Source: Candidatus Omnitrophota bacterium
GTDB lineage: Bacteria > Omnitrophota > Gorgyraeia > Gygaellales > Profunditerraquicolaceae
Direction of reading: 5' to 3'
DNA length: 64,000 bases
NCBI GenBank assembly: GCA_026387455.1
Contig: JAPLLR010000017.1
Location: 5,635-69,634, forward strand
Shown here: positions 19,152 through 57,178 of the stretch, piece after piece
How the letters are laid out: every line of letters starts with the position of its first letter
Position numbering within the stretch: the stretch's first letter is position 1
Program-made: the position numbers and the translations under genes
Notes under the pieces: model-generated
What the model was told of the DNA's origin: nothing
Seen by the model: only the letters and a program-made list of their open reading frames with translations
The model's database searches: none

Positions 19152-19222
19152 TAATTTGCCCTCGTTTCCTTCGAGGCAAATTACCCCGAAGCGTATCCCG
19201 AAAATATCGAAGAGATTTTCGG
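19152..19222. repeat. Composite hairpin element of the conserved-loop family: hairpin A (aatttgccctcg...cgaggcaaatt) followed by hairpin B (cccgaaaat-ATCGAAGAG-attttcggg).
   Basis: Perfect inverted repeats read directly from the sequence. The element lies between the 4Fe-4S/zinc-ribbon genes and the hcp start. Confidence 0.6.
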
Positions 19223-19243
19223 GATGATTACGCGAGGGGTTAA

Positions 19244-19474
19244 TTATTTCTTCCCCTTCAACTCTTTCCACTTCTTTTCGCCGATACACTCTTTTGCTGC
19301 TTTACACCAGTCCACGCAGGAAGGTAACCTTTCCCTGCAGATCAAGCCCTTACACTTAGGGCATTTTACTTTTATCTCGTCAGAAAAAATCTCCGCCTGA
19401 TACCCGCAATCCGGGCATTTAATAATTTCAGATTTAATATTTCGATCATCCTGGCCGGGGCATTTCTGGATCAC
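19244..19474 (-). CDS. Small Cys-rich zinc-ribbon protein.
   Basis: 76 aa with multiple CxxC pairs (CPDCGYQ...CPKCKGLIC...CVDWC). Confidence 0.4.
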   Translation of the reverse strand: MIQKCPGQDDRNIKSEIIKCPDCGYQAEIFSDEIKVKCPKCKGLICRERLPSCVDWCKAAKECIGEKKWKELKGKK

Positions 19475-20202
19475 TTTAATCTATCTCCTTTAATACTGAT
19501 AATCACGTCACAAAAAGACACAATCTTTCCCGAAGCGCTTATGGCCTGCTGAATAACCGGCATCAATCCAAAGCAGCAGGGCACCTCCATATGCGCGTAG
19601 GTGATGGATTTAATATTGTTGTGCTCAATAATCTGTGTAATTTTTTGCGTATACAACCCGATATCGTCGAATTTAGGGCAACCCACCAGTAGTACCTTAC
19701 CTTTCAACAAATCCTGGTGAAAGTTAGCATAGGCAAAAGGCACGCAATCCGCAGCGATCAGAATATCCGCATTATCCAGAAACGGTACGAACACCGGAAC
19801 CAACATCAGCTGTATCGGCCATTGACCTAATTGCGACTCTTGAGCCCCTGCCACAGGCGCATGAGCAGTAAATGGTTCTTCCTTTTTAAACTCCATAACC
19901 TTGGCCCCCGGGCATTCGGCATGGCCATGAGCATGATGCGCAATAATCGTATTCTTGCCCTGCTTAACAATATTCTCCATCACACGGCACTCATCATACT
20001 TCTCGGCTTCCCGCTCTTCGATAGTGATCGCTGCCTGCGGACAGTAACCAATACAAGCGCCAAGTCCATCGCAGAACAAATCACTGATCAAACGCGCCTT
20101 ATTGTCAACGATCTGGATCGCGCCCTCAGGACAATTGGGGATACACTGACCGCAACCGTTACACTTAGCCTCATCAATCTTAATAATCTTTCTTTTCGCC
20201 AT
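19471..20202 (-). CDS. 4Fe-4S dicluster ferredoxin-domain protein with a Cys-rich C-terminal domain.
   Basis: CNGCGQCIPNCP and CDGLGACIGYCP 4Fe-4S motifs at the N-terminus; 243 aa. Confidence 0.6.
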   Translation of the reverse strand: MAKRKIIKIDEAKCNGCGQCIPNCPEGAIQIVDNKARLISDLFCDGLGACIGYCPQAAITIEEREAEKYDECRVMENIVKQGKNTIIAHHAHGHAECPGAKVMEFKKEEPFTAHAPVAGAQESQLGQWPIQLMLVPVFVPFLDNADILIAADCVPFAYANFHQDLLKGKVLLVGCPKFDDIGLYTQKITQIIEHNNIKSITYAHMEVPCCFGLMPVIQQAISASGKIVSFCDVIISIKGDRLK

Positions 20203-20216
20203 GATAATCTCCTTAT

Positions 20217-20672
20217 CTAAAACAATGAAGCAATGGTAACCAGCCTTAACTCCTTAAGTACATACTGTTCTATTTTATCGATTTTCTTCTTAAGCGCGCA
20301 TCTTTTTATGTTAGGACAGACTACTTTTTTAAAAAGACATTCATTCAAACGAAATTTCCCCTGAAAGATCTCCATCAGTCCCAATAAGGAAATGCTCTCT
20401 GCGGACCTAGCCAACAGAAATCCTCCCCCCCTACCTTTATAGGCCACAAGCACACCTTCTTTATGCAATATCTGAAGGATCTTTCTTAAAAATGGTTTGG
20501 GGATTTTAAGCTCTTTAACTAAATCCCCTACATTGACGATCTCGTTTTTTCTACCCAGCATAAAACATAAAGCCCTTAACGCGTAATCCGTATCTCTGGT
20601 GATTAATTTCACCCCGCCCTTCCTTTCTAAAGACCCTCGCCCTACTTTAGGAAGGGCGGGGTTCATTCTCAC
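20217..20672 (-). CDS. Rrf2-family transcriptional regulator (NsrR/IscR-like), probably Fe-S cluster-binding. The true start is probably internal to the listed ORF.
   Basis: KLITRDTDYALRALCFML winged-helix N-terminus. Three clustered Cys (ECLFKKVVCPNIKRC) as in NsrR/IscR. It lies adjacent to hcp, the classical NsrR target. Confidence 0.7.
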   Translation of the reverse strand: MRMNPALPKVGRGSLERKGGVKLITRDTDYALRALCFMLGRKNEIVNVGDLVKELKIPKPFLRKILQILHKEGVLVAYKGRGGGFLLARSAESISLLGLMEIFQGKFRLNECLFKKVVCPNIKRCALKKKIDKIEQYVLKELRLVTIASLF

Positions 20673-20797
20673 AAAAAAATGCTACTGGGCAGTTTTACGT
20701 CTTACCCAGGACAAAATACTACAACCCTCTTTGCAGTGGGCGACCGGGCGCAGCATATACTTAACAGTAATATCCATGGCAGAGCTCCTTTCAGAGT

Positions 20798-20820
20798 AAT
20801 GATACCACATCAGTATCATT
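20798..20820. promoter_or_regulatory. Candidate operator: perfect dyad AATGATAC-n7-GTATCATT upstream of the Rrf2 regulator gene.
   Basis: aatgataccacatcagtatcatt, with 8-bp arms that are exact reverse complements. Confidence 0.35.
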
Positions 20821-20857
20821 TGTCAAGAAAAAAATCCTCTATTCTTTAAATATCCTA

Positions 20858-21205
20858 TTACTGTGCTTTAATCTCTTTCATTAGTTTGCCGCTAATACTG
20901 CAGTAGGCTTCCACTGAGAGCAAATCTCCAGACTTAATATCGGGGGAAGTGTAGGTAACGGTCTGGGAAAAGTAGCTATCCTGCTTTTTAAACTTTAGCT
21001 CCGCTATTTCTTTTCCGTTTAATCCGATGTCAACTTTATTTATATAATGCTGAGTGGGATTGCTTACGTTATGCTTTATCACGGCAGTCAAGGTCTTGGT
21101 AGCGGCATCATATGTGATGATGATATCTGACGGAGGATGGGCGTATGCCACAGAAGCGCTCAGCAGAGAAACCAACAATAGGATAGATACAACTATACTT
21201 CTCAT
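20858..21205 (-). CDS. Small secreted protein of unknown function.
   Basis: Signal peptide MRSIVVSILLLVSLLSASVAYA; about 115 aa. Confidence 0.4.
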   Translation of the reverse strand: MRSIVVSILLLVSLLSASVAYAHPPSDIIITYDAATKTLTAVIKHNVSNPTQHYINKVDIGLNGKEIAELKFKKQDSYFSQTVTYTSPDIKSGDLLSVEAYCSISGKLMKEIKAQ

Positions 21206-21951
21206 GCTATCCTCCTTTGCGGAATATGGTTTAACATCGGGGTAAGTGCATTCAAAATCAAAAGGCTGCAAAGCTCCACATCAAATCTAACGCCCATCTC
21301 AGTCAGAACAAAAATAAATACTGCGGTACCCGCGCCGAAGATAACCTTGCCAACCTGTTTTGAAGGGGTAGTCTTTGGCTCGATAAGCATAATAAACAAA
21401 TAGAAATAATTAAGGTACCCTAAAATATTCCATATGGGGCCCTTGCGGATAAATACCTGTATCCCGAAAAGAACGAAGAAAACCAAAACAAAGCCCGCTA
21501 GTATCTCAAGCTTCTGAATTTTATAAACAAAATAAATCCCGAAAGGAACCAAAATATACCAAAGATACACCCCTCTCCACTGCGTAAAAGCTCCGAGGAG
21601 GATTATTGACAGGAAGATTCCGAAGGCCGCAGGATTAAAAACATGCTTTGAGTTTATGCGTAGCAGGTGCTTTGAAGCGATGGCGAATACTGCCGCAAGC
21701 ACGATCACCCACCAGCGGTTATCTGCGGAAAGTACGGTTCCAACAATCAAACCGCTGATAAGAGAACTCTGCGTCACCTGAAACTTTTTGCTTCTAAAAT
21801 ACAAGAGCAAAGATTCCGTGCCTGAGGCCGCGGCAACCGAAAGGCACAGCGTAAAGATAAAAGCCGATTGCTTATCTATTAAATATGAATATGCGGCAAA
21901 GCATGCCAAAAAAATAATCAACTGAATTTTAATTGATTTAAAATCGGCCAT
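21202..21951 (-). CDS. Polytopic integral membrane protein of unknown function.
   Basis: 249 aa, multiple hydrophobic helices. Confidence 0.4.
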   Translation of the reverse strand: MADFKSIKIQLIIFLACFAAYSYLIDKQSAFIFTLCLSVAAASGTESLLLYFRSKKFQVTQSSLISGLIVGTVLSADNRWWVIVLAAVFAIASKHLLRINSKHVFNPAAFGIFLSIILLGAFTQWRGVYLWYILVPFGIYFVYKIQKLEILAGFVLVFFVLFGIQVFIRKGPIWNILGYLNYFYLFIMLIEPKTTPSKQVGKVIFGAGTAVFIFVLTEMGVRFDVELCSLLILNALTPMLNHIPQRRIA

Positions 21952-21960
21952 TTAACAAAT

Positions 21961-23232
21961 CTACCTACTCCAGATAAACCAGATAAATAGATACGCGGCA
22001 GTAACAGCGGCAAAGGTGAAAGGAATACCGATCTTCATAAAATCTTTGAATTTAACATCAATACCCTCTTTTTTCAGCAGACTGCAGGCGACAATATTAG
22101 CTGAAGCGCCTATAGGAGTGATATTACCACCCAGGCTTGCCCCGATAAGCAGCCCGAAAAGAAACAACGAAGGGTTTATTTGCAGCTTATCCGACATGGA
22201 GATGGCAACCGGAAGCATGGCTGCCAGAAACGGGACATTATCAATAAAAGCGGAAAGAATAACCGACATGAAAACGATCAGGGTATAACCTAAGAAGATA
22301 TTCTCTCCCACGATCCCAGAGAGAAAATTAGCCGTCACCTCAATCCACCCGGTAAGCGCAATGCTCCCTACTAGAATAAAAATGCCCATAAGAAAAAATG
22401 TAGTTTCCCAATCTAGAGATTTTATCCCTTTGGCAACAGAGCCTTTGTTTGCCAGCTTATCCCAGACAAAAGAAATTACAGCAGCTGCCATACATAAAAT
22501 ACCTGCCATATAGGAAAAACCAGTGTCGAAAAATGACGATAGTGCCAAAACGAGGATCAGACTAACCAGGATAACAGTCGGAACCCAGGACTTAACTTTT
22601 TCAGCCGGAACAAGCCTCATCTTCTCTTTATGACGCCTAAAAATGAAGTAGAGCACGAAAAATGAAACCAAAGCGCCCAACTCAACAGCAAAGAAAATAC
22701 TGGGCCGGCCCTTATAGAAAAAGAAATCGCCAAAATTCATCTTGGCAAAACCACCCAGTAGCATACTCGGAGGATCACCAATCAAAGTAGCAGTGCCCTG
22801 AAGATTACTGGATACGGCAATAGCAATCATCATCTTCATAGGGTTTATCTTAAGTTTCTTAGCCAAGGCTAAAGCGATAGGAGCAACGATCAAAACCGTA
22901 GCCACATTCTCTACAAAAGCGGATATAAAACCAGTCAACAAGCAAATAAGAAGAATAGCCCAAGTAGTGTTCTTTGCCTTATCCACGATTACCTCAGCGA
23001 TATAGGCAGGCACCCGGCTATCCATGAAGATACCCGCGACCACCAATGTCCCAACAAATATCCCCATAACATTCCAGTTTATAGCAAAGAATGCATCTTT
23101 AGGGGAGATAGTTCCGGTAAGAATCAACAACAAGCTTCCCACAACTGCAATGTGGGTGCGTTTATTCGGCAGGAAGATAAAAAGAATATAAGCGAGAATA
23201 AATATAATTAGTGAAATTAGGCTATGGCTCAT
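21961..23232 (-). CDS. ArsB/NhaD-superfamily (SLC13/CitMHS-like) anion permease.
   Basis: 423 aa polytopic membrane protein with the typical duplicated half-transporter layout and Gly/Ser-rich hairpin motifs (GSIALTGW, GGNITPIGASANIV). Confidence 0.5.
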   Translation of the reverse strand: MSHSLISLIIFILAYILFIFLPNKRTHIAVVGSLLLILTGTISPKDAFFAINWNVMGIFVGTLVVAGIFMDSRVPAYIAEVIVDKAKNTTWAILLICLLTGFISAFVENVATVLIVAPIALALAKKLKINPMKMMIAIAVSSNLQGTATLIGDPPSMLLGGFAKMNFGDFFFYKGRPSIFFAVELGALVSFFVLYFIFRRHKEKMRLVPAEKVKSWVPTVILVSLILVLALSSFFDTGFSYMAGILCMAAAVISFVWDKLANKGSVAKGIKSLDWETTFFLMGIFILVGSIALTGWIEVTANFLSGIVGENIFLGYTLIVFMSVILSAFIDNVPFLAAMLPVAISMSDKLQINPSLFLFGLLIGASLGGNITPIGASANIVACSLLKKEGIDVKFKDFMKIGIPFTFAAVTAAYLFIWFIWSR

Positions 23233-23244
23233 AGGTTTATACTA

Positions 23245-23865
23245 TTATCTGCAGCCAGATGTGTCAACAAAAGCTTTGCGAAACTTTAATATTTCTCCAT
23301 ATACATCTAACTTGCTTAACACCGCAGAAATTGCGCAGATGCTGTCAGCCCCGGACTTAATGACTTTCTTAGCGTTCTTTAAGTTAATACCCCCCAGGGC
23401 CACGATCGGGATCCTAACTCGTTTGCTTATTTCTTTTAGTTTATCGATCCCGATAGGCTTGCCAGCATCTAATTTTGTGCCGGTTGAAAATATCGGTGAA
23501 ACTCCCAGATAATCCGCGCCCTGCTTTTGAGCAATAAGGGCTTCTTTTAAATTGTGCACGGTGACACCGATTATTTTCTTCCCACCCAGCAATTTTCTTA
23601 CCACAGGAAGAGACAAATCATATTGACCTAAATGCACTCCGTCAGCGCCGCAAGCCAAAGTGATATCTATGCGATCATTAACCAGAAAAGTTATGTTCTT
23701 ACAGATGCGGCGCAGGACCTTTGCCTCCCTAAACATCTCGCGGCTAGACTTATTTTTCTCCCGATACTGCACAACTTTTACCCCGGCTTTGACCGCATTC
23801 CTTACGTCACTAGAAATCCCATTACGGCTAAGCCTAGAATCAGTAATAAAATAAAATCCCTTCAT
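23245..23865 (-). CDS. thiE: Thiamine-phosphate synthase.
   Basis: 206 aa. Full-length colinearity with ThiE (YFITD..., VQYREK, GADGVHLGQ, GVSPIFST, ALGGI). Confidence 0.8.
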   Translation of the reverse strand: MKGFYFITDSRLSRNGISSDVRNAVKAGVKVVQYREKNKSSREMFREAKVLRRICKNITFLVNDRIDITLACGADGVHLGQYDLSLPVVRKLLGGKKIIGVTVHNLKEALIAQKQGADYLGVSPIFSTGTKLDAGKPIGIDKLKEISKRVRIPIVALGGINLKNAKKVIKSGADSICAISAVLSKLDVYGEILKFRKAFVDTSGCR

Positions 23866-24668
23866 AGCCTCTCTACTTTTTGCTTATTGTTGATGGTCAA
23901 CTTATCCAGGTTTGCCAAACAGTCAAAAATGCCTTCCTTAAACGATCCCGGGCCTTTTGCCTTTTTCGCGGCGCACTCAGCAGCAAGCTCGAAACACACC
24001 AGCGCGCTAGCCGAAGCTAAAGCATAATCATTCTCTACCGCAGCAAATGCGCCGATAACTGAGGCTACCATGCAACCGCTGCCCACAATCTCAGTCAGCT
24101 TAGGAGTACCGTTTTTTACTATATATGTATTTATCCCGTCGCTAATGATATCTTCCTTACCGGTTACAACCACCGTAGCCTTACGTATTTGCGCAAGCTC
24201 TCGGGCGATTTCCTTTAAATTTGCGCTTACATGAGCAGCATCTACTCCTTTAGTGCGTACTTCCTCTCCGTTGATCCTAGCGATCTCAGAGGCATTGCCT
24301 TTGATTATATCTATTTTTACCTCATGCAGCAATTCCACGCATTTCTCATCGCGCAGCCGCGTTGCCCCGGCCCCACAGACATCCAAGATTACCGGTATGC
24401 CTTTTTCATTTGCGCTAATTGCCGCGATCTTCATCGCCTCCACAAAATCAACGGTGAGCGTTCCGATATTTAACACTAAGCTGGAAGCAATTTTCGCCAT
24501 CTCAGCTACCTCTTCTTTGGCATGAGCCATTACCGGAGAACCACCCATTACTTTGACTATCTGGGCACAGTCATAAATAGTCACCCAGTTAGTCAGATGG
24601 TGCACCACCGGCTTTTTTTCTCTGATCTTCTCCAACAGCTCCGCTGCCTCAATCTTTATTTTTTTCAT
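23862..24668 (-). CDS. thiM: Hydroxyethylthiazole kinase.
   Basis: 268 aa. ThiM-like motifs (HHLTNWVT..., GSPVMAH, IKGNASEI, GSGCM). Confidence 0.75.
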   Translation of the reverse strand: MKKIKIEAAELLEKIREKKPVVHHLTNWVTIYDCAQIVKVMGGSPVMAHAKEEVAEMAKIASSLVLNIGTLTVDFVEAMKIAAISANEKGIPVILDVCGAGATRLRDEKCVELLHEVKIDIIKGNASEIARINGEEVRTKGVDAAHVSANLKEIARELAQIRKATVVVTGKEDIISDGINTYIVKNGTPKLTEIVGSGCMVASVIGAFAAVENDYALASASALVCFELAAECAAKKAKGPGSFKEGIFDCLANLDKLTINNKQKVERL

Positions 24669-24696
24669 TTTCTTCCCTCAGTAATTATTTGATTCT

Positions 24697-26693: not shown

Positions 26694-26949
26694 TATGACT
26701 TATTCTATCCTAGGCTTAAAGTTTAATCAAGGGCTAGTATCTGGCGGTAGGAGTGCTGGATGAAGGTTTTTTAGAAGCCGCTACCCTGGCGGGTATGCGA
26801 AATAAAAGACATGTTTACCAACGCTATAAGTGGAGCACTGGGAATCGCTGTCTTTTGTGCGGGAACTAAACTCAAGCCTAACCTAAATTAGGCTTTCTTC
26901 CCTTATTAGCGCGTTTAGAGCGCCAATTCAATTTTCCTCTGCGTTTACG

Positions 26950-27060
26950 TTTTCCCATAGAATTTGCCCTCGTTTAAGTTGTTTGCAAATTCATCCCGAA
27001 GCCTTGGCCAAAATTATGGAACAGAATTTTGGCCAGTTTAGGCGAGGGACGAGTGAGTCC
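26950..27060. repeat. Composite hairpin element (family member) with a 10-bp perfect stem ggccaaaatt-ATGGAACAG-aattttggcc.
   Basis: Its flanks (gcaaattcatcccgaagcc, gagggacgagtg) are shared with the copies at 19150-19250 and 29130-29215. Confidence 0.55.
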
Positions 27061-27064: not shown

Positions 27065-27802
27065 TTAGTATTTATAGTAATTCGCCGGTATCACCTGCGC
27101 TATATAGCGCACTGCCTCAATAATACAGATACGTATGGCTTTTTCCATCGGCGTGTTAGAGTAGGCACCCAGCCCTGCGCCCAATCCCCAGCTACCCATG
27201 AACCCGGCCATAAATCCTCCGGCAACATCCGATGCCTGCCCCTGAACACGAGTAGAAGCTAAGACTTCCGAGGTGGAGGTATCCACAATGCGAATATCTA
27301 TGGCCATGTGCGACTTGTTCATCGCCGCACCTAGCAAGCCTCCTAAGACTCCGCTAGCCACACCGCCGCCGCCACCAATTCCCGCTGCACCACCTGAAAC
27401 CGCAGGCTCAAATTCCGTAACTGCCGCGGTAACGATAATATCTGCAGTCTTGATCTTTCCTCTTTGAGTGCCACCCGTTCCCTGCTGGGCAGCACCGGAA
27501 ACAGCCAGCTCCTGCTCCTGCATGACCGCGTCTAACTGCTGGCGTTCCAGCACGCTGAAACGATTGCTGTTTACCATGGCAGTGACTAACATTTCTCTTA
27601 ATCCTGTACCTATTTCTCCGGTCGCCTTGGCAGCCTTAACATCAAAATCCGCCACCGCTATACGCGCCTTTGGCCCGCTGTATGGCGGCAAAACCAAAGC
27701 TCCGGCATTATTATCCACCTGCGCGGTCGGCTGAGGCGAGGCGCATCCGATAAACCCAAAAATAATGAACAAATAACCAATGATTACAAGTACTCTTTTC
27801 AT
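27065..27802 (-). CDS. CsgG-family lipoprotein (curli-type secretion channel homologue).
   Basis: Lipobox FIGC after the signal peptide. ARIAVADFDV...GTGLREMLVTAMVNSNRFSVLERQQLDAVMQEQ matches the CsgG N-terminal core. No csgA/E/F genes are visible nearby. Confidence 0.6.
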   Translation of the reverse strand: MKRVLVIIGYLFIIFGFIGCASPQPTAQVDNNAGALVLPPYSGPKARIAVADFDVKAAKATGEIGTGLREMLVTAMVNSNRFSVLERQQLDAVMQEQELAVSGAAQQGTGGTQRGKIKTADIIVTAAVTEFEPAVSGGAAGIGGGGGVASGVLGGLLGAAMNKSHMAIDIRIVDTSTSEVLASTRVQGQASDVAGGFMAGFMGSWGLGAGLGAYSNTPMEKAIRICIIEAVRYIAQVIPANYYKY

Positions 27803-49754: not shown

Positions 49755-50070
49755 GACATGGCATAGCGTCTGCCTCATGGCGGGTGGGCTTGTCTTGTTT
49801 CTCGCAGGGACGTTTGTTTTGCCCCGGCGTGGCAAAACTGCACTCATTTCCAGCCCCTCGCTCTCGCTTGATATGTGATAGCGGGCGAACCATGCCCGCT
49901 CGGGGCTTTCATGCCCTGCTCGAAACCAAGCCAAGCCTCCCGCCAGCTGAAGAGATTCGCTTGATAATTTATAATGGCCGATAGGTTTAGCGGGTGACTT
50001 GGCTTGATCCGAGCACGGCCATAAGCCGCGCGCAGGACAAGCCAAGGCAGGACCCGCTAAACAATAGCAC
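49755..50070 (-). repeat. GC-rich modular structured repeat element, copy 2, inverted relative to copy 1.
   Basis: The reverse complement of 49981-50070 matches 45385-45470 almost base-for-base. The reverse complement of 49790-49920 matches module 2, with covarying changes (gttttgcc-acgccgg-ggcaaaac). Confidence 0.6.
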
Positions 50071-50095
50071 TTAGTGGAAAAATAACCAAGGGCAA

Positions 50096-51502: not shown

Positions 51503-51831
51503 CAGCGCACCACCAGGTAATTCTTTATTTTATCGAACTTGCCGGCGGTTAGGCCTTTGATTTCCTTGATCTGCTCAATATCGCTTAGGCCGGCCAACTC
51601 ATTTCTAAGCGCGATGATCCGCTGAGCCAGCTTTTCTCCTATACCCGGAACGCTCTTAAGCGTATCCTTATCCGCGGAATTCAAGTCAACCTTGCCAAAA
51701 TCACTCTCTAGCCGCGCAATACGCTCTACCGGAACAAATACCTTTGCCGCATAGCTCACCCCCACACCCATCAAAACCACAGCCAACAGAAAAATTAGAA
51801 CTTTACGCTCTTCCGTAGTCAAGTTTGACAT
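51502..51831 (-). CDS. comEA: ComEA DNA-binding competence protein (helix-hairpin-helix).
   Basis: 109 aa: N-terminal anchor plus DLNSADKDTLKSVPGIGEKLAQRII (HhH)2 motif. Confidence 0.7.
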   Translation of the reverse strand: MSNLTTEERKVLIFLLAVVLMGVGVSYAAKVFVPVERIARLESDFGKVDLNSADKDTLKSVPGIGEKLAQRIIALRNELAGLSDIEQIKEIKGLTAGKFDKIKNYLVVR

Positions 51832-51960
51832 AGTTCCACCTCCCTCTACTTATCCCTACAGTTGTACACTTCGGAAATTTCTTTGAAATTTCCTTGTAAC
51901 TGCAGGGATTAAGTTCGGGCATATAAGTTATGTCGTCCATCCATTGGACTCCATAACTTA

Positions 51961-52000
51961 CCCCACAGGGGTAGGCCTTCCCATCCTATAAAGGAAGAGC
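51961..52000. repeat. Intergenic copy of the hairpin element that is inserted in hcp.
   Basis: ccccacaggggtaggccttcc-catcctataa-aggaagagcc. Confidence 0.5.
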
Positions 52001-52070
52001 CTTATGCCCTCACTTAAATAGACGTAAAGGAAGGCAAAATCTAACAGAAAATCTTAGGATATTTGCGACT

Positions 52071-52220
52071 GGCTTAGTTTTGTTTTGAGTAGGGCATGGA
52101 AGCCCCGAGCGGGCATGGCGCACGCCTTTGGCGTGCAGGCGAGGGGCTGGAAATGAGTGCAGTTTTGTCACGCCGGGACAAAACAAACGCCCCTGCGAGA
52201 AACAAAACAAGACAGGCGCG
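52071..52220 (+). repeat. GC-rich structured repeat element, copy 3 (module 2 only).
   Basis: gggcatggaagccccgagcgggcatggcgcacgcc...gaggggctggaaatgagtgcagttttgtcacgccgggacaaaacaaacgcccctgcgagaaacaa. It aligns with copy 2 in reverse complement. Hairpin gttttgtc-acgccgg-gacaaaac carries a compensatory C-G to U-A change. Confidence 0.55.
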
Positions 52221-52224
52221 AAAA

Positions 52225-54624
52225 TTAAACTACGATGTTAACCAGCTTCTTGGGGACGATAACGAAATTGCGGATGGACTTACCCTCTATCCAGGGTTTA
52301 AGCCTCTCCTCGGAGAGGACTAATTCTTTCAACTTATCTTGCGCTATATCTGCGGGTACATCGAGCTTTGTACGCAGCTTTCCATTAACCTGCACGACGA
52401 TCGTTATCACATCTTCAACCAGCATCTTCGGATCAAACTCCGGCCACTTAGCTTTACATATACTTTCCTTATTTCCCAATATCTGCCACAGCTCCTCGGC
52501 AAAATGCGGCGCAATAGGACTGATCATCAATACCAGATTCGCAAATACTTCCTTATCCGCGCCTGATTGATAAATAGCATTGGTCAGCTCCATCAGGCTA
52601 GCGATAGCGGTATTAAACTTAAACTCCGCGTAGTCAACGCTTACCTTCTTAATAACCCTGTGCATGGTACGTAGCAAAACATCATCAGCCTTAGGTAAAA
52701 GGTTCTCCTGTACGCGCCAGACGCGGTTTAAAAACTTATTCGCGCCCTCAATACCGCGATCATCCCACTCCAGCTCGGTTTCAGGCGGCGCGGCAAACAA
52801 AATAAAAAGCCTTAATGTATCCGCTCCGTAATTCTTAATGATAGAGTCAGGGTCCACGATGTTGCCTCTAGATTTAGACATCACCTCCCCGTCTTTTAAA
52901 ACCATGCCCTGAGTAAGCAGGCGCTTAAATGGCTCCTTGAAATCGATCATTCCCAGATCCTGAAAGAACTTGGTAAAGAAACGCGAGTACAATAAATGCA
53001 GGATAGCATGCTCGATGCCTCCGATATACTGGTCCACCGGCATCCAGTACTTAGCGTCTAAAACATTAAAAGGGGCATTGTCGAGTTTTGGTGAGCAGAA
53101 ACGCAGGAAATACCAGGAAGAATCAAAGAATGTGGCCATGGTATCGGTTTCCCGACGAGCAGAACCAATACACTTGGGGCATTTTACCTCAACAAATTCC
53201 TTAACCTTACCTAAGGGACTCCCTCCTTCTCCGGTAATGGGCGCATCTTTAGGTAACTCCACCGGCAACTGAGCATAAGGCACAGGCACTATACCGCACT
53301 TTGAGCAATAAATAATGGGAATAGGCGTGCCCCAGTATCTCTGACGAGATATCAACCAATCGCGCAACCGCCAATGCGTCTGAATCTTGCCGATCTTGGT
53401 TTGCTCCATCCACTCAGCGATTTTTATTTTAGCTTCCTGATTAGTAAAGCCGTCGAATTGCGCGGAATTCACTTGAATACCATCGTCTTCAAAAGCCTCT
53501 ATCATCGCTTCGATAGTTGTTGGTCTATGGTCTATGGTCTGAATAACTATGCGCATCGGCAGCTCATGCTCTTTAGCGAACAAAAAGTCGCGCTGGTCAT
53601 GAGTCGGCACAGCCATAATCGCGCCAGTGCCGTATTCCATTAATACATAATCCGCGATCCAGATCGGGATGGTTTCATTGTTCACCGGATTAACCGCATA
53701 GCTTCCCGTGAACACCCCTTCTTTTTTAACATCCGAGGACGTCCGTACCACTTTGGTTTCCTTGGACACCTTCTCGATGAACTTCAGCGCCTCTTTTTCC
53801 TGAAGTCTACCCTTGATTAAATCTAAAACCTGCGGATGCTCCGGAGCCAAGACAATATAAGTGGCGCCAAATATAGTATCCGCGCGAGTAGTAAAAACCG
53901 GGATCACTGTCGCCAAATCTTTAAGCTTAAAGTATATCTCTACGCCTGAGCTTTTTCCGATCCAGTTATTCTGCATGCTGATGACCCGCTCAGGCCAATC
54001 ACCTAGCTGATTCAGATCCTCTAAAAGTCTTTCTTTATAATCAGTGATCTTCAGATACCATTGCTCAAGGTCTTTTTGTTCAACCTTAGTCTTACAGCGC
54101 CAACAACCACCCTCGATCACCTCTTCATTAGCCAACGTTGTTTCACAAGAAGAGCACCAGTTGACATCAGAACCCTTCTTATAGGCAAGCCCGCGCTCAT
54201 ACATCTTCAAAAAGATCCATTGGTTCCATTTATAGTAATCGCTGTCACAGGTAGAAACCTCGCGGCCCCAGTCATAAGAAAAACCCATGCGCTTAAGCTC
54301 CGCCTTCATCCAGTCAATGCACTTATGCGTCCAGATATCCGGCTTAGTGTTATTTTTAATGGCGGCGTTTTCCGCGGGCTGGCCAAAAGCGTCAAACCCC
54401 ATGGGATGCATCACCTGAAACCCCTGCATCAGCTTAAAACGCGCGGCCACATCGCCGATAGTATAATTACGAACATGGCCCATATGAATCTTGCCCGAAG
54501 GATACTGGAACATCTCCAGGAGATAATACTTCTTGCGCTCCTGGTCAGGTTGGACGGAGAAGATCTTCTTATCATGCCAAATTTTTTGCCATTTTTCTTC
54601 TATCTCTTTAAACGAATAACTCAT
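52225..54624 (-). CDS. leuS: Leucyl-tRNA synthetase.
   Basis: 799 aa; HMGHVRNY (HIGH) and KMSKS motifs; editing domain. Confidence 0.9.
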   Translation of the reverse strand: MSYSFKEIEEKWQKIWHDKKIFSVQPDQERKKYYLLEMFQYPSGKIHMGHVRNYTIGDVAARFKLMQGFQVMHPMGFDAFGQPAENAAIKNNTKPDIWTHKCIDWMKAELKRMGFSYDWGREVSTCDSDYYKWNQWIFLKMYERGLAYKKGSDVNWCSSCETTLANEEVIEGGCWRCKTKVEQKDLEQWYLKITDYKERLLEDLNQLGDWPERVISMQNNWIGKSSGVEIYFKLKDLATVIPVFTTRADTIFGATYIVLAPEHPQVLDLIKGRLQEKEALKFIEKVSKETKVVRTSSDVKKEGVFTGSYAVNPVNNETIPIWIADYVLMEYGTGAIMAVPTHDQRDFLFAKEHELPMRIVIQTIDHRPTTIEAMIEAFEDDGIQVNSAQFDGFTNQEAKIKIAEWMEQTKIGKIQTHWRLRDWLISRQRYWGTPIPIIYCSKCGIVPVPYAQLPVELPKDAPITGEGGSPLGKVKEFVEVKCPKCIGSARRETDTMATFFDSSWYFLRFCSPKLDNAPFNVLDAKYWMPVDQYIGGIEHAILHLLYSRFFTKFFQDLGMIDFKEPFKRLLTQGMVLKDGEVMSKSRGNIVDPDSIIKNYGADTLRLFILFAAPPETELEWDDRGIEGANKFLNRVWRVQENLLPKADDVLLRTMHRVIKKVSVDYAEFKFNTAIASLMELTNAIYQSGADKEVFANLVLMISPIAPHFAEELWQILGNKESICKAKWPEFDPKMLVEDVITIVVQVNGKLRTKLDVPADIAQDKLKELVLSEERLKPWIEGKSIRNFVIVPKKLVNIVV

Positions 54625-55019
54625 TCCTCATCCCATTTCTTACGTAAAGGCATCAGTGAAATCATGGTCTGCAGACCGCTTAGAATATGCTGGACATCTA
54701 CCGGCTTAGTCAAATAATGGTCTGCTTCCATATCATAACTTTTCTTGACTGCCTTTAGCTCAGTATTACCGCTAACAATGATCACCGGAATCCATTTGTC
54801 CCGGTTTTTGACACGGATTGCCTGAAGCACTTCAAAACCGCTTAGCTTAGGCATAATCAGATCCAAAATGACGATATCCGGATTTTCCGAATCTACTTTT
54901 TGCAGAGCCTCTTCTCCGTCATAAGCCTCGACTACTTCATAACCCTCGCGCAGCAGCAATTTCCTGTAGAAATCCATGCTCTGCTTTTCGTCATCCACCA
55001 CCAGGATCTTGTAGGCCAT
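54621..55019 (-). CDS. Single-domain response regulator (CheY-like receiver).
   Basis: ILVVDDE...phospho-acceptor D in ILDLIMP...KP motif; 132 aa. Confidence 0.65.
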   Translation of the reverse strand: MAYKILVVDDEKQSMDFYRKLLLREGYEVVEAYDGEEALQKVDSENPDIVILDLIMPKLSGFEVLQAIRVKNRDKWIPVIIVSGNTELKAVKKSYDMEADHYLTKPVDVQHILSGLQTMISLMPLRKKWDEE

Positions 55020-55033
55020 AAATGCCTTCCGCC

Positions 55034-55876
55034 TTAATTCTTAAGCTTCCTAACTAAAGCCAGATTTATTTTATCTGAATTTTCCGTTTCCTTAGGGGTC
55101 TCCAGGATCATCGGTATATTCCTTAATTTAGAATGGTTAATGATCCTTTTCATCCCACTCAGCCCAATATGACCCTTGCCAATATGGTCATGACGGTCAT
55201 GGTGCGAGCCCAGCTCTCCCTTAGCATCATTCAAATGGATAAGCTTAATCATGTCTGTGCCGCAAAGCTCTTCTATCTCATCCAGCATATCTTCAAGGCC
55301 GTCTTTGGTAGAGATGTCATAGCCGGCTAGATAAGCATGCGCCGTATCCAAACAAAGGCCGACGCGTTTTAAATCAATCATTGCGGCAAGCACCTCATTC
55401 TGGTGAATAAATTTGTAACCCAGCCAGGAGCCTGAGCCAGAGGTGTTTTCCAGCAGGATTCCGACTTTAGTATGCTTAGTTTTGTCCAGAATCCGGTTAA
55501 GTGCCTGGATCAGGCGCTTAACACCCGCTTCCTCCGAAGTCTCCTTATGACTACCCATGTGTGTTACGATATAATCGGCGTGCAGCAAATCTGCTTCCAG
55601 AATATCCTCTATATACGCCTCAATGGAAGCCCCATACAGCTTCGGATTAGGAGAAGCTAAGTTGATCAAGTACGGTATATGGATAAAGAACGGCTTAACT
55701 TTAAGCTTTTCCTGGCGCTTATTAAACTCCTCAATATCTTCAACCGCAAGCTGAGCATCCCGCCAGCGCTGGGGGCTGCGCGAGAAAATCTGCATAGTGT
55801 TACAGCCTAACTCCTTGGCTACAGTCAACGCCTGGTAGATCTTTCCCGCACCCGAAACATGCACCCCTAAGATCAT
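55034..55876 (-). CDS. nfo: Endonuclease IV (deoxyribonuclease IV, AP endonuclease).
   Basis: MILGVHVSGAGK start aligns with Nfo MKYIGAHVSAAGG. TIM-barrel His/Asp/Glu ligand pattern (HMGSH, LENTSG, HLNDAK). Confidence 0.75.
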   Translation of the reverse strand: MILGVHVSGAGKIYQALTVAKELGCNTMQIFSRSPQRWRDAQLAVEDIEEFNKRQEKLKVKPFFIHIPYLINLASPNPKLYGASIEAYIEDILEADLLHADYIVTHMGSHKETSEEAGVKRLIQALNRILDKTKHTKVGILLENTSGSGSWLGYKFIHQNEVLAAMIDLKRVGLCLDTAHAYLAGYDISTKDGLEDMLDEIEELCGTDMIKLIHLNDAKGELGSHHDRHDHIGKGHIGLSGMKRIINHSKLRNIPMILETPKETENSDKINLALVRKLKN

Positions 55877-55956
55877 AATAGTCAAGATTATACCGCAGTT
55901 AGAATTGACCGTCAAGCCATGTTGCCAACCAACGAATAATATGTTATGCTTATTTG

Positions 55957-56190
55957 TTGCGCTTTCTGCTACACCCAACTTTATAGCACCTTGGCATATA
56001 GGGTTGCCAAGTGCATCCCCTGCGGGATGGAAAAGTTGGTGTTACACTTTCTGCTTTACACCCGGCCTTAGCCCCTTCCTTAAAAGGTATAGGAAGGGCT
56101 ACCCCTCTGGGGTTATAGGATAGGCCGGTGTGCCGCTTTCTGCTACACCCAACTTTATAGGAAAAGTTGGTGTTCCGCTTTCTGCGTAAG
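55957..56190. repeat. Iteron-like array: four copies of c[ga]ctttctgc[t][a]acaccc, two of them arranged as an inverted pair (acacccaacttt/aaagttggtgt).
   Basis: Copies at about 55965, 56046, 56136 and 56175. It lies immediately upstream of the RBS of the RHH-like gene. Confidence 0.5.
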
Positions 56191-56200
56191 GAGGATTAAA

Positions 56201-56518
56201 ATGCTGCTGAGACAACAGGTGCTGATTGAAGACTGGCTAGTAGAATACTTAAAATTTCTGTCTGAAAAATACGATTTAAGCTATTCCGAAGTCATCAGGC
56301 TGGGATTATGCGCCCAATTCGATGAGATGATCACCTTGGCCTATCCCGACATCAAATCCAAGATAGATAAAAAGAAGTTCCTGCAATTACTGCATAAATC
56401 AGAGAATATCAAAGAATCGCGCGAAGAGCTATTAAAAGCGATTTCCGCGGTATATTTTGAAGCCCGCAAGACCATCGAAGCCCGCATGGCCAAAGAGAAA
56501 AAAGCAAAACACAGGTAA
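56201..56518 (+). CDS. Ribbon-helix-helix (CopG/Arc/MetJ-like) DNA-binding protein, 105 aa.
   Basis: Strong RBS TAAGGAGG. N-terminus QQVLIEDWLVEYLKFLSEKYDLSYSEVIRLGL fits the beta-strand plus two-helix RHH pattern. Confidence 0.45.
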   Translation: MLLRQQVLIEDWLVEYLKFLSEKYDLSYSEVIRLGLCAQFDEMITLAYPDIKSKIDKKKFLQLLHKSENIKESREELLKAISAVYFEARKTIEARMAKEKKAKHR

Positions 56519-56540
56519 GTTTCGATAGCCAAGCAATCAG

Positions 56541-56569
56541 TTGACAAGGCTGCGGGTGGATGTTATATT
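56541..56569 (+). promoter_or_regulatory. Sigma-70-type promoter candidate for the tRNA cluster (TTGACA-17 nt-TATATT).
   Basis: ttgacaaggctgcgggtggatgttatatt. Confidence 0.45.
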
Positions 56570-56574
56570 TAGGA

Positions 56575-56712
56575 AATCTTTCGGGGTATGTCGGGGCTGT
56601 CCGAGAGAAGTAAAATTAGTGGGCGCCCCAACTAGAAGCATAATTATCTTGGGGCTGTCCCCTGTCCGGAAAATGACTTGGGACGCCCCTCGCCTGAAGT
56701 AAATTTCATCTT
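56575..56712 (+). repeat. Two tandem repeats of about 63 nt, each beginning with a mimic of the tRNA-Ala 5' end (tcggggctgtcc, cttggggctgtcccc), immediately upstream of the genuine tRNA.
   Basis: Unit 1 is gtcggggctgtccgagagaagtaaaattagtgggcgccccaactagaagcataattatc. Unit 2 is ttggggctgtcccctgtccggaaaatgacttgggacgcccctcgcctgaagtaaatttcatc. The tRNA then begins ttggggctgtagctcag. Confidence 0.5.
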
Positions 56713-56785
56713 GGGGCTGTAGCTCAGCTGGGAGAGCACCTGCATGGCATGCAGGGGGTCAGGGGTTCAAATCCCCTCAGCTCCA
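56713..56785 (+). tRNA. tRNA-Ala (anticodon GGC).
   Basis: Cloverleaf folded by hand. G3:U70 Ala identity pair; anticodon stem cctgc/gcagg; loop aUGGCAu; T-loop GGTTCAAAT. Confidence 0.85.
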
Positions 56786-56829
56786 CATTTACTTTAATTT
56801 TCCTCATCAGCAAATGTGTCCCGTAGCTT

Positions 56830-56860
56830 GTGCCGAAAATATCGAAGAAATTTTCGGCAC
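56830..56860. repeat. Hairpin of the conserved-loop family, between the two tRNAs: gtgccgaaaat-ATCGAAGAA-attttcggcac.
   Basis: 11-bp perfect stem. The stem differs from the 19196 copy (cccgaaaat/attttcggg) by a compensatory C/G swap. It may double as a tRNA terminator. Confidence 0.55.
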
Positions 56861-56908
56861 GTTTAAGCAAGAGACACCAAAAATACTTTCCTCCCCATAA
56901 CCCTTCGC

Positions 56909-56991
56909 GCCGAAGTGGTGGAATGGCATACACGTCGGTCTCAAAAACCGATGAGCGCAAGCTCGTAAGGGTTCAACTCCCTTCTTCGGCA
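56909..56991 (+). tRNA. tRNA-Leu (anticodon CAA), class II with a long variable arm.
   Basis: Acceptor gccgaag/cttcggc; D-stem gtg/cac; anticodon stem tcggt/accga with loop cUCAAaa; variable hairpin gagcg-caa-gctc; T-arm aaggg-TTCAACT-ccctt. Confidence 0.75.
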
Positions 56992-57027
56992 TAAGATTTT
57001 GTCATAAATTACTTCCCACAAAATCTA

Positions 57028-57178
57028 CATCGAATCCTGGCGAGACAAATTTCGAAGAAATTTGGCCGCCGTTTAGGATTCGATGCAAGAAGCGATTACG
57101 CAAGGGATAAATTTTCGATCGCCCTAAGCAAATTACCCCAGCGAGTGCATCAAAATTATCGAAGAGAATTTTGGGATG
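57028..57178. repeat. Two further hairpin-family elements downstream of tRNA-Leu. The first (57028-57087) is a nested hairpin, and the second (57148-57178) has loop ATCGAAGAG.
   Basis: Nested: acatcgaatcc[...gacaaattt-cgaag-aaatttggc...]ggattcgatg. Second: catcaaaatt-ATCGAAGAG-aattttgggatg. Preceded by gcaaattacccc as at 19175. Confidence 0.5.

What the first reader, a model, noticed from the sequence alone, without database searches (positions are those of the whole stretch)
19152..57178. Genome-specific hairpin family with a conserved ATCGAAGAG-type loop and covarying stems
At least five intergenic hairpins share the loop ATCGAAGAG (variants ATGGAACAG, ATCGAAGAA). They are at 19196-19222, 27006-27034, 56830-56860, 57044-57067 and 57148-57178. 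Their stems all differ while staying perfectly complementary (cccgaaaat/attttcggg, gtgccgaaaat/attttcggcac, ggccaaaatt/aattttggcc). They are embedded in larger conserved contexts (gcaaattaccccgaagc..., ...gagggacgagtg, ...ggggttaatt) and are often paired with a second hairpin. A conserved loop with a free stem argues for a loop-recognising protein, or a processed small RNA family, or a REP/BOX-like mobile element. They are not simple terminators. Two of them bracket the tRNA-Ala/tRNA-Leu genes.
Basis: seen in the sequence. Interest (0 to 1): 0.6.

Follow-up and report, generated by a model that had tools for sequence, protein, structure and literature searches.

The report
Phylum-wide intergenic hairpin repeat family
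The five hairpins are real copies of a two-hairpin intergenic repeat, absent from Rfam, that is shared by dozens of uncultivated Omnitrophota genomes rather than one; it sits at gene boundaries and reads in the sense direction after tRNA genes but antisense before protein genes.

Summary
Four clear copies and one degenerate copy lie on the + strand (model E-values 3.5e-22 to 1e-06).

- The family is not genome-specific. It occurs in 27 species-level assemblies, mostly labelled Candidatus Omnitrophota. A metagenome scan stopped at its 120-locus limit.
- The "9-nt loop" is not a free loop. It is an A·G mismatch, a U-A pair, a covarying C-G pair and a GNA triloop (sometimes a GNRA tetraloop).

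The unit is a 56-nt three-tier hairpin: a YCCC/GGGR stem, a GAA/RA purine internal loop, a GCNU/ANGC stem, a GWUU bulge and an 11-bp free stem. A second, gene-proximal hairpin (hp1) precedes it. About 98% of cells pair in two separately retrieved alignments, with strong covariation.

Copies fill spacers between co-directional genes. They are antisense to protein genes (81 vs 21) and sense after tRNA genes (13 vs 1).

Between related species, copies are either identical or replaced by other hairpin modules. Tandem, inverted and nested copies exist.

Best reading: an old REP/ERIC/BOX-like structured intergenic repeat that is co-transcribed with its neighbours. The RNA role, the mobilising agent and the cause of the orientation rule are unknown. 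No Rfam family and no Y1 transposase were found.

The parts
19184..19239 (+). Copy c1, the distal three-tier hairpin ('el'). Outer stem CCCC/GGGG, internal loop GAA/GA, stem GCGUA/UACGC, bulge GAUU, inner stem, apex AUCGAAGAG. It is intercistronic and antisense to both neighbours.
   Evidence: R1 model 89.2 bits, E 3.5e-22. Fold z -5.7. 100% identical to the orthologous site in L037, while the flanks are 83-93% identical.
19152..19183 (+). c1 proximal hairpin hp1 (AAUUUGCC...GGCAAAUU). It abuts the reverse-complemented Shine-Dalgarno sequence and start codon of the hcp/prismane gene (17762..19138, - strand).
   Evidence: Fold. Sequence. Prismane Pfam hit. Gene-sense reading el-hp1-AAAGGGG-N8-ATG.
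26994..27049 (+). Copy c2 (el), with apex variant AUGGAACAG in which the apical C-G pair is swapped to G-C. It lies 15 nt from the stop codon of the CsgG-like gene (27065..27802, - strand).
   Evidence: R1 83.2 bits, E 1.7e-20. Fold z -3.8. CsgG Pfam hit.
26960..26992 (+). c2 proximal hairpin hp1 (GAAUUUGC...GCAAAUUC). A possible 26-aa ORF (26878..26958, - strand) starts 2 nt from it.
   Evidence: Fold. ORF list. The ORF has no Pfam match.
56819..56874 (+). Copy c3 (el), in the spacer between tRNA-Ala(GGC) 56713-56786 and tRNA-Leu(CAA) 56909-56991, on the same strand as the tRNAs. It is slightly decayed: GUA in place of GAA, and one C·A mismatch.
   Evidence: R1 79.1 bits. tRNAs. Copies with the same inner stem (TGTGCC[G/A]AAAAT): L031, which follows a tRNA-Ala, and L082, which has no adjacent tRNA.
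56787..56818 (+). c3 proximal hairpin hp1 (CAUUUAC...GCAAAUG). It starts at the 3' end of tRNA-Ala. Coordinates are approximate.
   Evidence: Sequence. The arrangement tRNA-hp1-el recurs in 13 of 14 tRNA-linked copies.
57028..57085 (+). Copy c4, a degenerate member 23 nt (to the start of the model match, 57014) after tRNA-Leu. It belongs to the apex sub-variant with an extended perfect stem (AAAUUUC-GAA-GAAAUUU) and has a different lower stem.
   Evidence: R1 33.4 bits, E 1e-06. Fold z -4.9.
57136..57191 (+). Copy c5, a decayed member with an intact apex and outer stem but a broken middle stem. It overlaps the 3' end of the convergent DUF3108 ORF (57156..57926, - strand).
   Evidence: R1 54.3 bits, E 1.7e-12. 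Poor fold, z +0.7. Pfam.

Best explanation
The hairpins are copies of an old, bipartite, interspersed intergenic palindromic element. A gene-proximal variable hairpin (hp1) is followed by a 56-nt three-tier hairpin (el). The family is shared across Candidatus Omnitrophota-type genomes.

Shown here:
- The family, its structure and its covariation.
- Its spread over many species.
- Its placement in short spacers between co-directional genes, so it must be co-transcribed.
- The polarity: hp1 always faces the neighbouring gene.
- The orientation rule: the GNA strand is sense after tRNA genes and antisense before protein genes.
- DNA-level turnover: presence or absence at orthologous sites, tandem and inverted copies, nesting, and identical cores at different loci.

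Inferred:
- The element spreads and is homogenised as DNA, by an unidentified transposition or recombination route.
- It persists because, as an RNA hairpin inside polycistronic transcripts, it punctuates them (a processing site, a nuclease barrier or an insulator between cistrons), as REP, ERIC and BOX elements do.
- Selection filters orientation. The purine-rich, more stable GNA strand carries Shine-Dalgarno-like runs (GAGGGG, AAGGAG). It is tolerated in untranslated tRNA operons but selected against in mRNAs.
For: Family and structure:
- 47 genome copies: 97.8% of cells paired, covariation score 0.523 against 0.146 in shuffles and at most 0.11 with slid partners.
- 99 metagenome copies, retrieved separately with the apex left free: 97.9% paired, 0.430 against 0.124.
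- Ten pairs show changes on both sides; pair 24-63 uses all four Watson-Crick types.

Spread:
- Model hits in 45 loci from 27 assemblies.

Placement:
- Of 150 non-redundant copies, the hp1 side faces a CDS start on the opposite strand in 81, a CDS end on the same strand in 21, a tRNA 3' end on the same strand in 13 and a tRNA 5' end in 1.
- 60 copies lie between two co-directional CDSs.
- Neighbouring genes are ordinary housekeeping genes. By my reading of the N-termini these include L19, L32, IlvC, IlvD, RbfA and EF-G, plus hcp.
- The orientation is not set by the replication strand. The GNA strand is the C-rich strand in 41 of 43 copies next to protein genes, but the G-rich strand in 11 of 12 tRNA-linked copies.

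Strand asymmetry:
- All conserved non-Watson-Crick features are purines on one strand, including the GNA or GNRA apex.
- That strand is predicted to be more stable in 93 of 99 copies (RNA parameters) and 97 of 99 (DNA parameters).

Turnover:
- Two orthologous spacers carry el in L037 but other hairpin modules in the window.
- Tandem arrays occur in L053, L100 and L168; inverted pairs in L026 and L006; nested insertions in L059 and L037:3230.
- Two copies in L167 share a rare apex although their contexts differ.
- A co-resident palindromic repeat has inserted in frame into the window's hcp gene.
Against: - No transposase, terminal inverted repeats or target-site duplication were identified. tblastn with IS200, IS608 and E. 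coli RAYT proteins found nothing in about 1.35 Mb.
- Copies within the window are only 67-75% alike, unlike recent bursts of mobile elements.
- c1 plus its hp1 is 100% identical between two species whose flanks differ by 7-17%. This points to in-place constraint, or to gene conversion.
- The conserved unpaired bases suggest a specific partner, which a generic 'hairpin barrier' role does not require.
- If only the mRNA-sense hairpin mattered next to protein genes, the GNA and G·A features on the antisense strand should decay there. They do not.
- There are no expression data, so the RNA role is pure inference.
Confidence: 0.5

Rival explanations
1. A purely selfish single-stranded-DNA hairpin element (REP or IS200/IS605-type miniature). 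A HUH/Y1 transposase would recognise the GNA-strand hairpin, and the element would have no host function.
For: - The apex C-GNA-G / C-GNRA-G and the tandem G·A in 5'-Y-GA-R contexts are the classic very stable DNA mini-hairpin motifs (PMC13037366, PMC3201870). They are kept on one strand whatever the direction of transcription.
- Copies are gained or lost, duplicated in tandem, nested, and in one case carry an inverted loop, L101.
Against: - No Y1 transposase homologue in any DNA held.
- No GTAG or CGTC tag.
- Orientation follows gene class, not replication strand.
- Copies within one genome are old and divergent.
- Conservation across the phylum, with covariation at orthologous tRNA spacers.
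Confidence: 0.2
2. A dedicated protein-binding cis-regulatory hairpin, forming an IRE-like post-transcriptional regulon. A conserved Omnitrophota factor would read the purine internal loop, the GWUU bulge and the apex.
For: - The unpaired bases are conserved while the stems vary freely across at least 27 species.
- The position relative to stop codons and Shine-Dalgarno sequences is tight.
- c1 is perfectly conserved between species.
Against: - Both orientations occur in transcripts, so one RNA-binding surface cannot serve them all.
- The linked genes share no obvious function.
- Related species swap the element for unrelated hairpins at the same site.
Confidence: 0.15
3. A trans-acting small-RNA network. 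tRNA-operon spacers would be cut out by RNase P and RNase Z as stable GNA-strand RNAs, which then pair with the complementary copies in mRNA leaders and intercistronic spacers, for example by apex-apex kissing.
For: - In tRNA clusters the module fills the whole spacer, e.g. L008 Cys-el-Leu and window c3. tRNA processing would therefore release it.
- Sense copies (tRNA-linked) and antisense copies (mRNA-linked) coexist in the same genomes and are complementary in their conserved segments.
Against: - The apex is internally paired (covarying C-G), leaving only 3 free bases.
- The stems differ between copies.
- There are no expression data.
- The tRNA-linked copies in the window (c3-c5) are the decayed ones.
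Confidence: 0.07
4. Intrinsic transcription terminators or attenuators.
For: - They sit just after stop codons and after tRNA genes.
- The base of the hairpin is G+C-rich.
- In the mRNA-sense reading the hairpin is followed by UAAUUU or AUUAAUU.
Against: - There is no U-run in the consensus 3' flank in the GNA orientation.
- They fill spacers inside tRNA clusters and operons that leave no room for new promoters.
- The terminator scan does not call them.
Confidence: 0.05

Closest known systems
ERIC / IRU (enterobacterial repetitive intergenic consensus)
   Same: An imperfect palindrome in transcribed intergenic regions. Its sequence is conserved across many species while its chromosomal sites differ between them. 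It occurs in either orientation, and it shows presence/absence at orthologous sites. (Properties of ERIC are from my own knowledge.)
   Different: ERIC is about 127 bp and a single palindrome. No conserved GNA mini-hairpin apex or gene-class-dependent orientation is known to me for ERIC. The host phylum is different, and there is no sequence similarity.
REP / BIME and REPINs (RAYT-associated)
   Same: High-copy extragenic palindromes, mainly between unidirectional ORFs, probably acting as RNA hairpins. They occur singly and as inverted dimers, and occasionally inside genes (PMC3733652).
   Different: REPs are 20-40 bp with an unpaired GTAG or CGTC tag, and their stems are conserved. Here the hairpin is 56 nt plus a second hairpin, has no tag, and has free covarying stems with conserved unpaired bases. 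No RAYT was found.
BOX elements of Streptococcus pneumoniae and Correia elements of Neisseria
   Same: Modular or composite small repeats in intergenic DNA that are co-transcribed and fold into stable hairpins. (From my own knowledge.)
   Different: Those families are restricted to a species or genus, and Correia elements have terminal inverted repeats and a TA duplication. This family spans many species, and no terminal repeats or duplication were found.
DNA mini-hairpins d(C-GNA-G) / d(C-GNNA-G) in single-strand initiation signals (phage G4 origin, RSF1010 ssiA, phage N4 early promoters)
   Same: The apex is the same motif: a C-G closing pair and a GNA triloop (GAA, GCA, GUA, GGA) or a GNRA tetraloop, always on one strand (PMC13037366, PMC3201870).
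   Different: Those signals are single sites in phage or plasmid origins and promoters. They are read by primases or by the N4 polymerase on single-stranded DNA. Nothing here shows priming or hairpin-promoter activity, and the element is chromosomal and multi-copy.
Integron attC sites
   Same: Imperfect hairpins in which structure is conserved more than sequence. Folding is strand-specific. A GTTTAGGC segment superficially resembles the GTTRRRY core.
   Different: The GUUU here is a bulge and is not paired to an inverse core. The neighbours are housekeeping genes and tRNAs rather than cassette arrays, and no integrase context was seen.

Membership tests
REP (repetitive extragenic palindrome) as defined in PMC3733652 | Small palindromic unit of 20-40 bp | tested here: not met
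   The unit is a 56-nt three-tier hairpin plus a hairpin of about 30 nt.
REP (repetitive extragenic palindrome) as defined in PMC3733652 | Unpaired GTAG or CGTC tag at one end | tested here: not met
   The 5' flank consensus is CGAATTAAY or GCAAAT(T)N, and the 3' flank is variable. GTAG occurs only in c3, as a variant of the internal loop.
REP (repetitive extragenic palindrome) as defined in PMC3733652 | High copy number, intergenic, mainly between unidirectional or convergent ORFs | tested here: met
   5 copies in 64 kb. 60 of 150 copies lie between co-directional CDSs.
REP (repetitive extragenic palindrome) as defined in PMC3733652 | Linked RAYT (Y1 transposase) gene flanked by the repeats | tested here: inconclusive
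Whole genomes could not be scanned.
MITE (miniature inverted-repeat transposable element, e.g. Correia) | Terminal inverted repeats and a target-site duplication | tested here: inconclusive
   Orthologous filled and other-filled sites give no clean empty site. TTAA or AATGAG recurs at module junctions, but it is also part of the hp1 stem.
Intrinsic (Rho-independent) terminator | G+C-rich stem-loop directly followed by a U run | tested here: not met
   The consensus 3' flank is CAA.. or UAA... The scan does not call the elements. They lie inside tRNA clusters.
Integron attC | Paired R''/R' core sites (RYYYAAC / GTTRRRY), cassette array, integrase | tested here: not met
   GWUU is an unpaired bulge, supported by the covariation register. 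The neighbours are housekeeping genes and tRNAs.
Kink-turn RNA motif | Three-nucleotide bulge followed by tandem G·A / A·G pairs that open the non-canonical stem | tested here: not met
   The covariation fixes G22-C65 and C23-G64 as Watson-Crick pairs. The loop is therefore a 3x2 internal loop (GAA/RA) and not a kink-turn register.
Any Rfam 15 family | Score at or above the family's gathering threshold | tested here: not met
   The whole window at the gathering threshold gives only 2 tRNAs and a c-di-GMP-I-UAU riboswitch. Permissive scans over c1, c3-c5 and L065 give only noise of 22.8 bits or less on the element (the one higher non-tRNA match, mascRNA-menRNA at 24.4 bits, overlies tRNA-Ala).

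The most novel reading that the evidence does not exclude
The element is a phylum-wide, strand-asymmetric 'gene-boundary' signal whose functional form is the GNA-strand hairpin itself.

One version is a sense/antisense RNA system. tRNA-operon spacers would release stable GNA-strand hairpin RNAs that pair with complementary hairpins placed in front of dozens of housekeeping operons, tying mRNA processing or translation to tRNA transcription.

The other version is a single-stranded-DNA mini-hairpin signal (C-GNA-G, as in the G4 origin, ssiA and N4 promoters) read on the template strand upstream of protein genes.

Either version would explain why the purine motifs are kept on the strand antisense to mRNAs. 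It would also explain why orientation depends on whether the neighbour is a tRNA or a protein gene.
Probability: 0.1. Interest if true: 0.85.

Novelty: new variant of a known kind. Interest (0 to 1): 0.55.

Why it matters
Omnitrophota are uncultivated, and almost nothing is known about how they express their genes.

A structured element with the following properties is either an important RNA-processing or punctuation signal or an unusually long-lived mobile element:
- it is conserved, with covariation, across dozens of species;
- it occupies a sizeable share of intercistronic and inter-tRNA spacers;
- it follows a clear grammar (hp1 towards the gene; sense after tRNAs, antisense before coding genes).

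It comes with a ready covariance model for annotating these genomes. It also gives a concrete, testable puzzle in the gene-class-dependent orientation. Finally, it marks a lineage in which small palindromic modules are exchanged between spacers and are even inserted in frame into an enzyme gene.

Tried and rejected
- **Rfam.** Neither the gathering threshold nor permissive thresholds give a family for the element.
- **Kink-turn and T-loop readings** of the internal loop and the apex. Rejected because the covariation fixes a different pairing register.
- **Sigma-70 promoter inside the element.** The best reading on the gene-sense strand is TAAACA-16-GATAWT. It is weak, and it would make no sense for the tRNA-linked copies. 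A normal TTGAAC-18-TATAAA promoter is visible upstream of a tRNA in L067... more precisely in L167, so standard promoters are in use.
- **Intrinsic terminator.** There is no U run in the consensus flank.
- **attC.** Rejected on pairing register and on context.
- **G·U versus A·C wobble counts to pick the folded strand.** A first count gave 20 vs 6. With more data the variable stems are balanced, about 29 vs 27. Only the outermost pair is skewed (T·G 29, C·A 2), and that may be one inherited variant. The test is therefore uninformative.
- **Orientation set by the replication strand.** Rejected: the GC-skew sign differs between tRNA-linked and protein-linked copies. Within the window all five copies happen to lie on the C-rich strand.
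- **Transposase link.** tblastn with three Y1 transposases found no hit.
- **Exact-protein look-up** of the window's hcp product, to find the source genome: not on record.
- **Literature searches** for an Omnitrophota repeat or RNA motif found nothing relevant.
- **Viral contigs.** One hit, on the same contig as a metagenome hit.

Full report

- A degenerate apex pattern with up to two mismatches hits exactly those five sites, all on the + strand. Shuffles give 0.36 on average, and none of 100 reaches five.
- A second pattern over the 3' half hits four of them against 0.06 expected.
- Direct-repeat detection groups four as a 64-nt family at 67-75% identity.

I call them c1 (19184-19239), c2 (26994-27049), c3 (56819-56874), c4 (57028-57085) and c5 (57136-57191). 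c1-c3 have perfect inner stems. c4 and c5 are decayed: their model scores are 33 and 54 bits against 79-89 for c1-c3, and c5 no longer folds better than its shuffles.

**2. Anatomy**

Read on the + strand, it consists of:
- a 4-bp outer stem, YCCC/GGGR;
- a 3x2 purine internal loop, GAA opposite RA;
- a 4-bp stem, GCNU/ANGC;
- a 4-nt bulge, GWUU, on the 3' side;
- an 11-bp inner stem, of which the lower six pairs are free and the upper five are the conserved AAAWU/AWUUU;
- the apex.

The '9-nt loop' AUCGAAGAG is not a free loop. Its positions 3 and 7 covary: C-G in 39 copies, G-C in 5, U-A in 1. The apex is therefore an A·G mismatch, a U-A pair, a C-G pair and a triloop.

When copies were retrieved with the apex left free, the triloop was GNA: GAA 41, GCA 15, GUA 13, GGA 4, with AAA 8. 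A sub-variant has an extended stem capped by a GNRA tetraloop, UUUC-GUAA/GAAA-GAAA. c4 belongs to the extended-stem type, with a GAA loop.

A second hairpin, hp1, directly precedes el. Two hp1 types exist:
- AAAUUUGCC...GGCAAAUUU, as in the window;
- UUAAUGAG-[AUAACUUAUG...CAUAAGUUAU]-CGAAUUAA, in many other genomes.

A second el subtype replaces the lower part with CCCGNC-GAAU ... GUUUAUGA-GNCGGG. It too gives a tandem G·A next to the outer stem.

**3. It is not genome-specific**

One scan of the species-representative genome collection, using a pattern over the apex and the 3' half, returned 88 loci. A covariance model (R1) built from 47 aligned copies (A3) found 69 hits at E <= 0.01. All of them are in the window or in 45 loci from 27 assemblies:
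- 19 labelled Candidatus Omnitrophota or Omnitrophica;
- 5 labelled 'uncultured Planctomycetales' or 'Planctomycetia';
- one each labelled Ratteibacteria, Nitrospirota and 'uncultured bacterium'.

The other 43 loci were chance pattern matches in unrelated taxa, and none had a model hit.

A metagenome scan constrained the lower stems but left the apex free.

The window itself is syntenic at about 83% nucleotide identity with contig CAYHBB010000036 (L037). It therefore comes from a related species in this group.

**4. Covariation**

| Alignment | Cells paired | Covariation score | Shuffled mean | Slid partners |
|---|---|---|---|---|
| A3, 47 genome copies | 97.8% | 0.523 | 0.146 | at most 0.110 |
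| A9, 99 metagenome copies | 97.9% | 0.430 | 0.124 | at most 0.087 |

- In each alignment, ten pairs show changes on both sides.
- Pair 24-63 uses all four Watson-Crick types.
- No shuffle out of 500 reached the observed score in either alignment.

Caveats: the columns fixed by the retrieval patterns are invariant by construction. Copies are related to each other, so cell counts overstate the number of independent events.

**5. Where the copies sit**

Using crude ORF calls and ARAGORN tRNA calls on 150 non-redundant copies:

| Feature facing the hp1 side | Copies |
|---|---|
| Start of a protein gene on the opposite strand | 81 |
| End of a protein gene on the same strand | 21 |
| 3' end of a tRNA on the same strand | 13 |
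| 5' end of a tRNA | 1 |

The dominant arrangement (60 copies) lies between two co-directional protein genes. On the gene-sense strand it reads: stop codon, then el (reverse complement), then hp1, then CUCAUUAAGGAGG, 5-8 nt and AUG.

The stop codon is often within about 10 nt of the outer stem. In the window, c1 starts 4 nt after the stop of a 76-aa zinc-ribbon ORF (19244..19474, - strand), and its hp1 ends 14 nt before the start codon of hcp (19138). c2 lies 15 nt from the stop of the CsgG-like gene.

The downstream genes are ordinary. hcp is confirmed by Pfam. By my reading of the N-termini, others are L19, L32, IlvC, IlvD, RbfA and an EF-G-like protein.

In tRNA clusters the module fills the spacer, on the tRNA strand. 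Examples are the Cys-Leu-Val clusters in L005, L008, L025 and L057, and c3 between tRNA-Ala and tRNA-Leu in the window.

Where two copies meet they lie tail to tail, so each hp1 faces its own gene (L026, L006, L025, L057). hp1 is therefore always gene-proximal and el distal.

Relative to transcription, the GNA strand is antisense about 4:1 next to protein genes and sense 13:1 next to tRNAs. This is not a replication-strand effect. The GNA strand is the C-rich strand in 41 of 43 protein-linked loci, but the G-rich strand in 11 of 12 tRNA-linked loci. The window is the one exception, because its two tRNA genes are head-on to their neighbours.

**6. Which strand matters?**

All conserved non-Watson-Crick features are purines on one strand: GAA/RA, the A·G mismatch, the GNA or GNRA cap, and the tandem G·A in hp1 and in subtype 2.
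- C-GNA-G and C-GNNA-G are the 'mini-hairpin' motifs known for exceptional stability in DNA. They occur in the G4 origin, in RSF1010 ssiA and in N4 early promoters (PMC13037366, PMC3201870).
- Nearest-neighbour folding makes the GNA strand more stable in 93 of 99 copies as RNA and 97 of 99 as DNA, by about 2 kcal/mol.
- The G-N-A pattern, with a free middle base, holds among copies that are antisense to protein genes.

Wobble counts do not help. G·U and A·C are balanced in the variable stems, and only the outermost pair is skewed.

It therefore remains unexplained why the strand with the designed-looking motifs is mostly the one not present in the mRNA. One simple possibility is that the GNA strand carries Shine-Dalgarno-like runs (GAGGGG, AAGGGG, and AAGGAG in L002 and L053) and forms the harder hairpin. 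It would then be selected against in translated RNAs and tolerated in tRNA operons. This is inference only.

**7. Evolutionary behaviour**

- c1 plus its hp1 is identical over about 107 nt between the window and L037, while the flanking sequence is 83-93% identical. The same el core also follows tRNA-Leu in another relative (L025:1822). The identity may therefore reflect homogenisation between copies as much as constraint in place.
- At two other orthologous spacers, L037 carries el copies where the window carries different small hairpins. The flanks align cleanly.
- Tandem arrays occur in L053 (96-nt period), L100 and L168.
- Other hairpins are nested inside el or inside its loop (L059, L037:3230).
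- One copy has an inverted apex (L101).
- Two L167 copies share a rare apex (AUCUUUGAU) but sit in different contexts.
- A co-resident palindromic family has inserted 90 nt in frame into the window's hcp gene. This adds 30 residues that the L037 orthologue lacks.

Together these observations show turnover of small hairpin modules at the DNA level in this lineage.

**8. What it is not**

- It matches no Rfam family.
- It is not a kink-turn (wrong pairing register).
- It is not a canonical terminator: the consensus flank has no U run, and copies lie inside tRNA clusters.
- It is not an attC site.
- It is not a REP in the strict sense: it is too long, it lacks a GTAG or CGTC tag (PMC3733652), and its stems are free rather than conserved.
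- No IS200, IS608 or RAYT homologue was found in the roughly 1.35 Mb held. This is weak evidence, because such genes are few per genome.

**9. Verdict**

The family is real, structured and widespread. The best fit is an old REP/ERIC/BOX-like interspersed intergenic palindromic element. It is co-transcribed with its neighbours and probably acts as an RNA hairpin that punctuates polycistronic transcripts, while turning over as DNA (confidence about 0.5).

Rivals are:
- a purely selfish single-stranded-DNA hairpin transposon (0.2);
- a protein-binding regulon (0.15);
- a tRNA-spacer-derived antisense RNA network (0.07);
- terminators (0.05).

Two unusual points lift this above a routine repeat: the conservation across a phylum with covariation, and the gene-class-dependent orientation with purine motifs kept on the strand antisense to mRNAs. 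The literature searches found no description of such an element in Omnitrophota.

Noticed in passing
window 18272-18361 (inside hcp ORF 17762..19138, - strand): A 90-nt in-frame insertion adds 30 residues (GLAPSLAPSLKGTGRATPVGLKGTGRATPVGL). It is built from small palindromic repeat units (TAACCCCACAGGGGTA, GCCCTTCC...GGAAGGGGC) that also occur in intergenic DNA (window 51958-51990, L037 300-450). The orthologous hcp gene of L037 lacks it. It resembles Rickettsia palindromic elements inside genes.
   Followed up: yes
window 13422-13473 and 17683-17734; also 13474-13560: Another repeat family (92% identical copies) consists of two small hairpins (GCGCAAAAAGCGC and CTGGCC...GGCCAG) that directly abut the reverse-complemented Shine-Dalgarno sequences of - strand genes. 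At these two spacers the related genome L037 carries el copies instead.
   Followed up: partly
window 55960-56200: A cluster of nested hairpin repeats (GGAAAAGTTGGTGTT.CGCTTTCTGC three times, with other palindromes inserted between them) lies upstream of the + strand ORF 56201..56518.
   Followed up: no
window 17611-17679 (- strand): A tiny conserved ORF encodes MACGSCGCKAKKPKKKAKKKKK, with its own Shine-Dalgarno sequence. It lies between hcp and the desulfoferrodoxin gene and is also present in L037. It has no Pfam match.
   Followed up: partly
window 19244-19474 (- strand): A 76-aa Cys-rich zinc-ribbon ORF was missed at the 80-aa cutoff. It lies between the Fer4 gene and hcp and is conserved in L037. 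Its stop codon is 4 nt from c1.
   Followed up: partly
window 26878-26958 (- strand): A possible 26-aa very basic ORF (MGKRKRRGKLNWRSKRANKGRKPNLG) starts 2 nt from c2's hp1. It has no Pfam match, and to my eye it resembles ribosomal protein Thx.
   Followed up: partly
window 61729-61805 (- strand): A c-di-GMP-I-UAU riboswitch aptamer (67.7 bits, just above the gathering score of 65.9) lies upstream of ORF 61208..61705.
   Followed up: no
window 56575-56712: The first 10-13 nt of tRNA-Ala (up to ATCTTGGGGCTGT) recur twice upstream of the gene. A fragment resembling the 5' end of a reverse-oriented el (CCCCTCGCCTGAAG) sits at 56686-56699.
   Followed up: no
window 1-7000: Highly repetitive coding DNA, with periods of 504, 132 and 579 nt and recurring GCCGGTAA..AATATTACCGCC units. 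It looks like a very large repeat-rich surface protein gene, as reported for Omnitrophota.
   Followed up: no
L101:1852-1907 and L167:897-1307: One metagenome copy carries the apex in inverted orientation (CTCTTCGAC), as if the loop had flipped. In L167, two copies share a rare palindromic apex (ATCTTTGAT) although one precedes a protein gene and the other follows a tRNA.
   Followed up: partly
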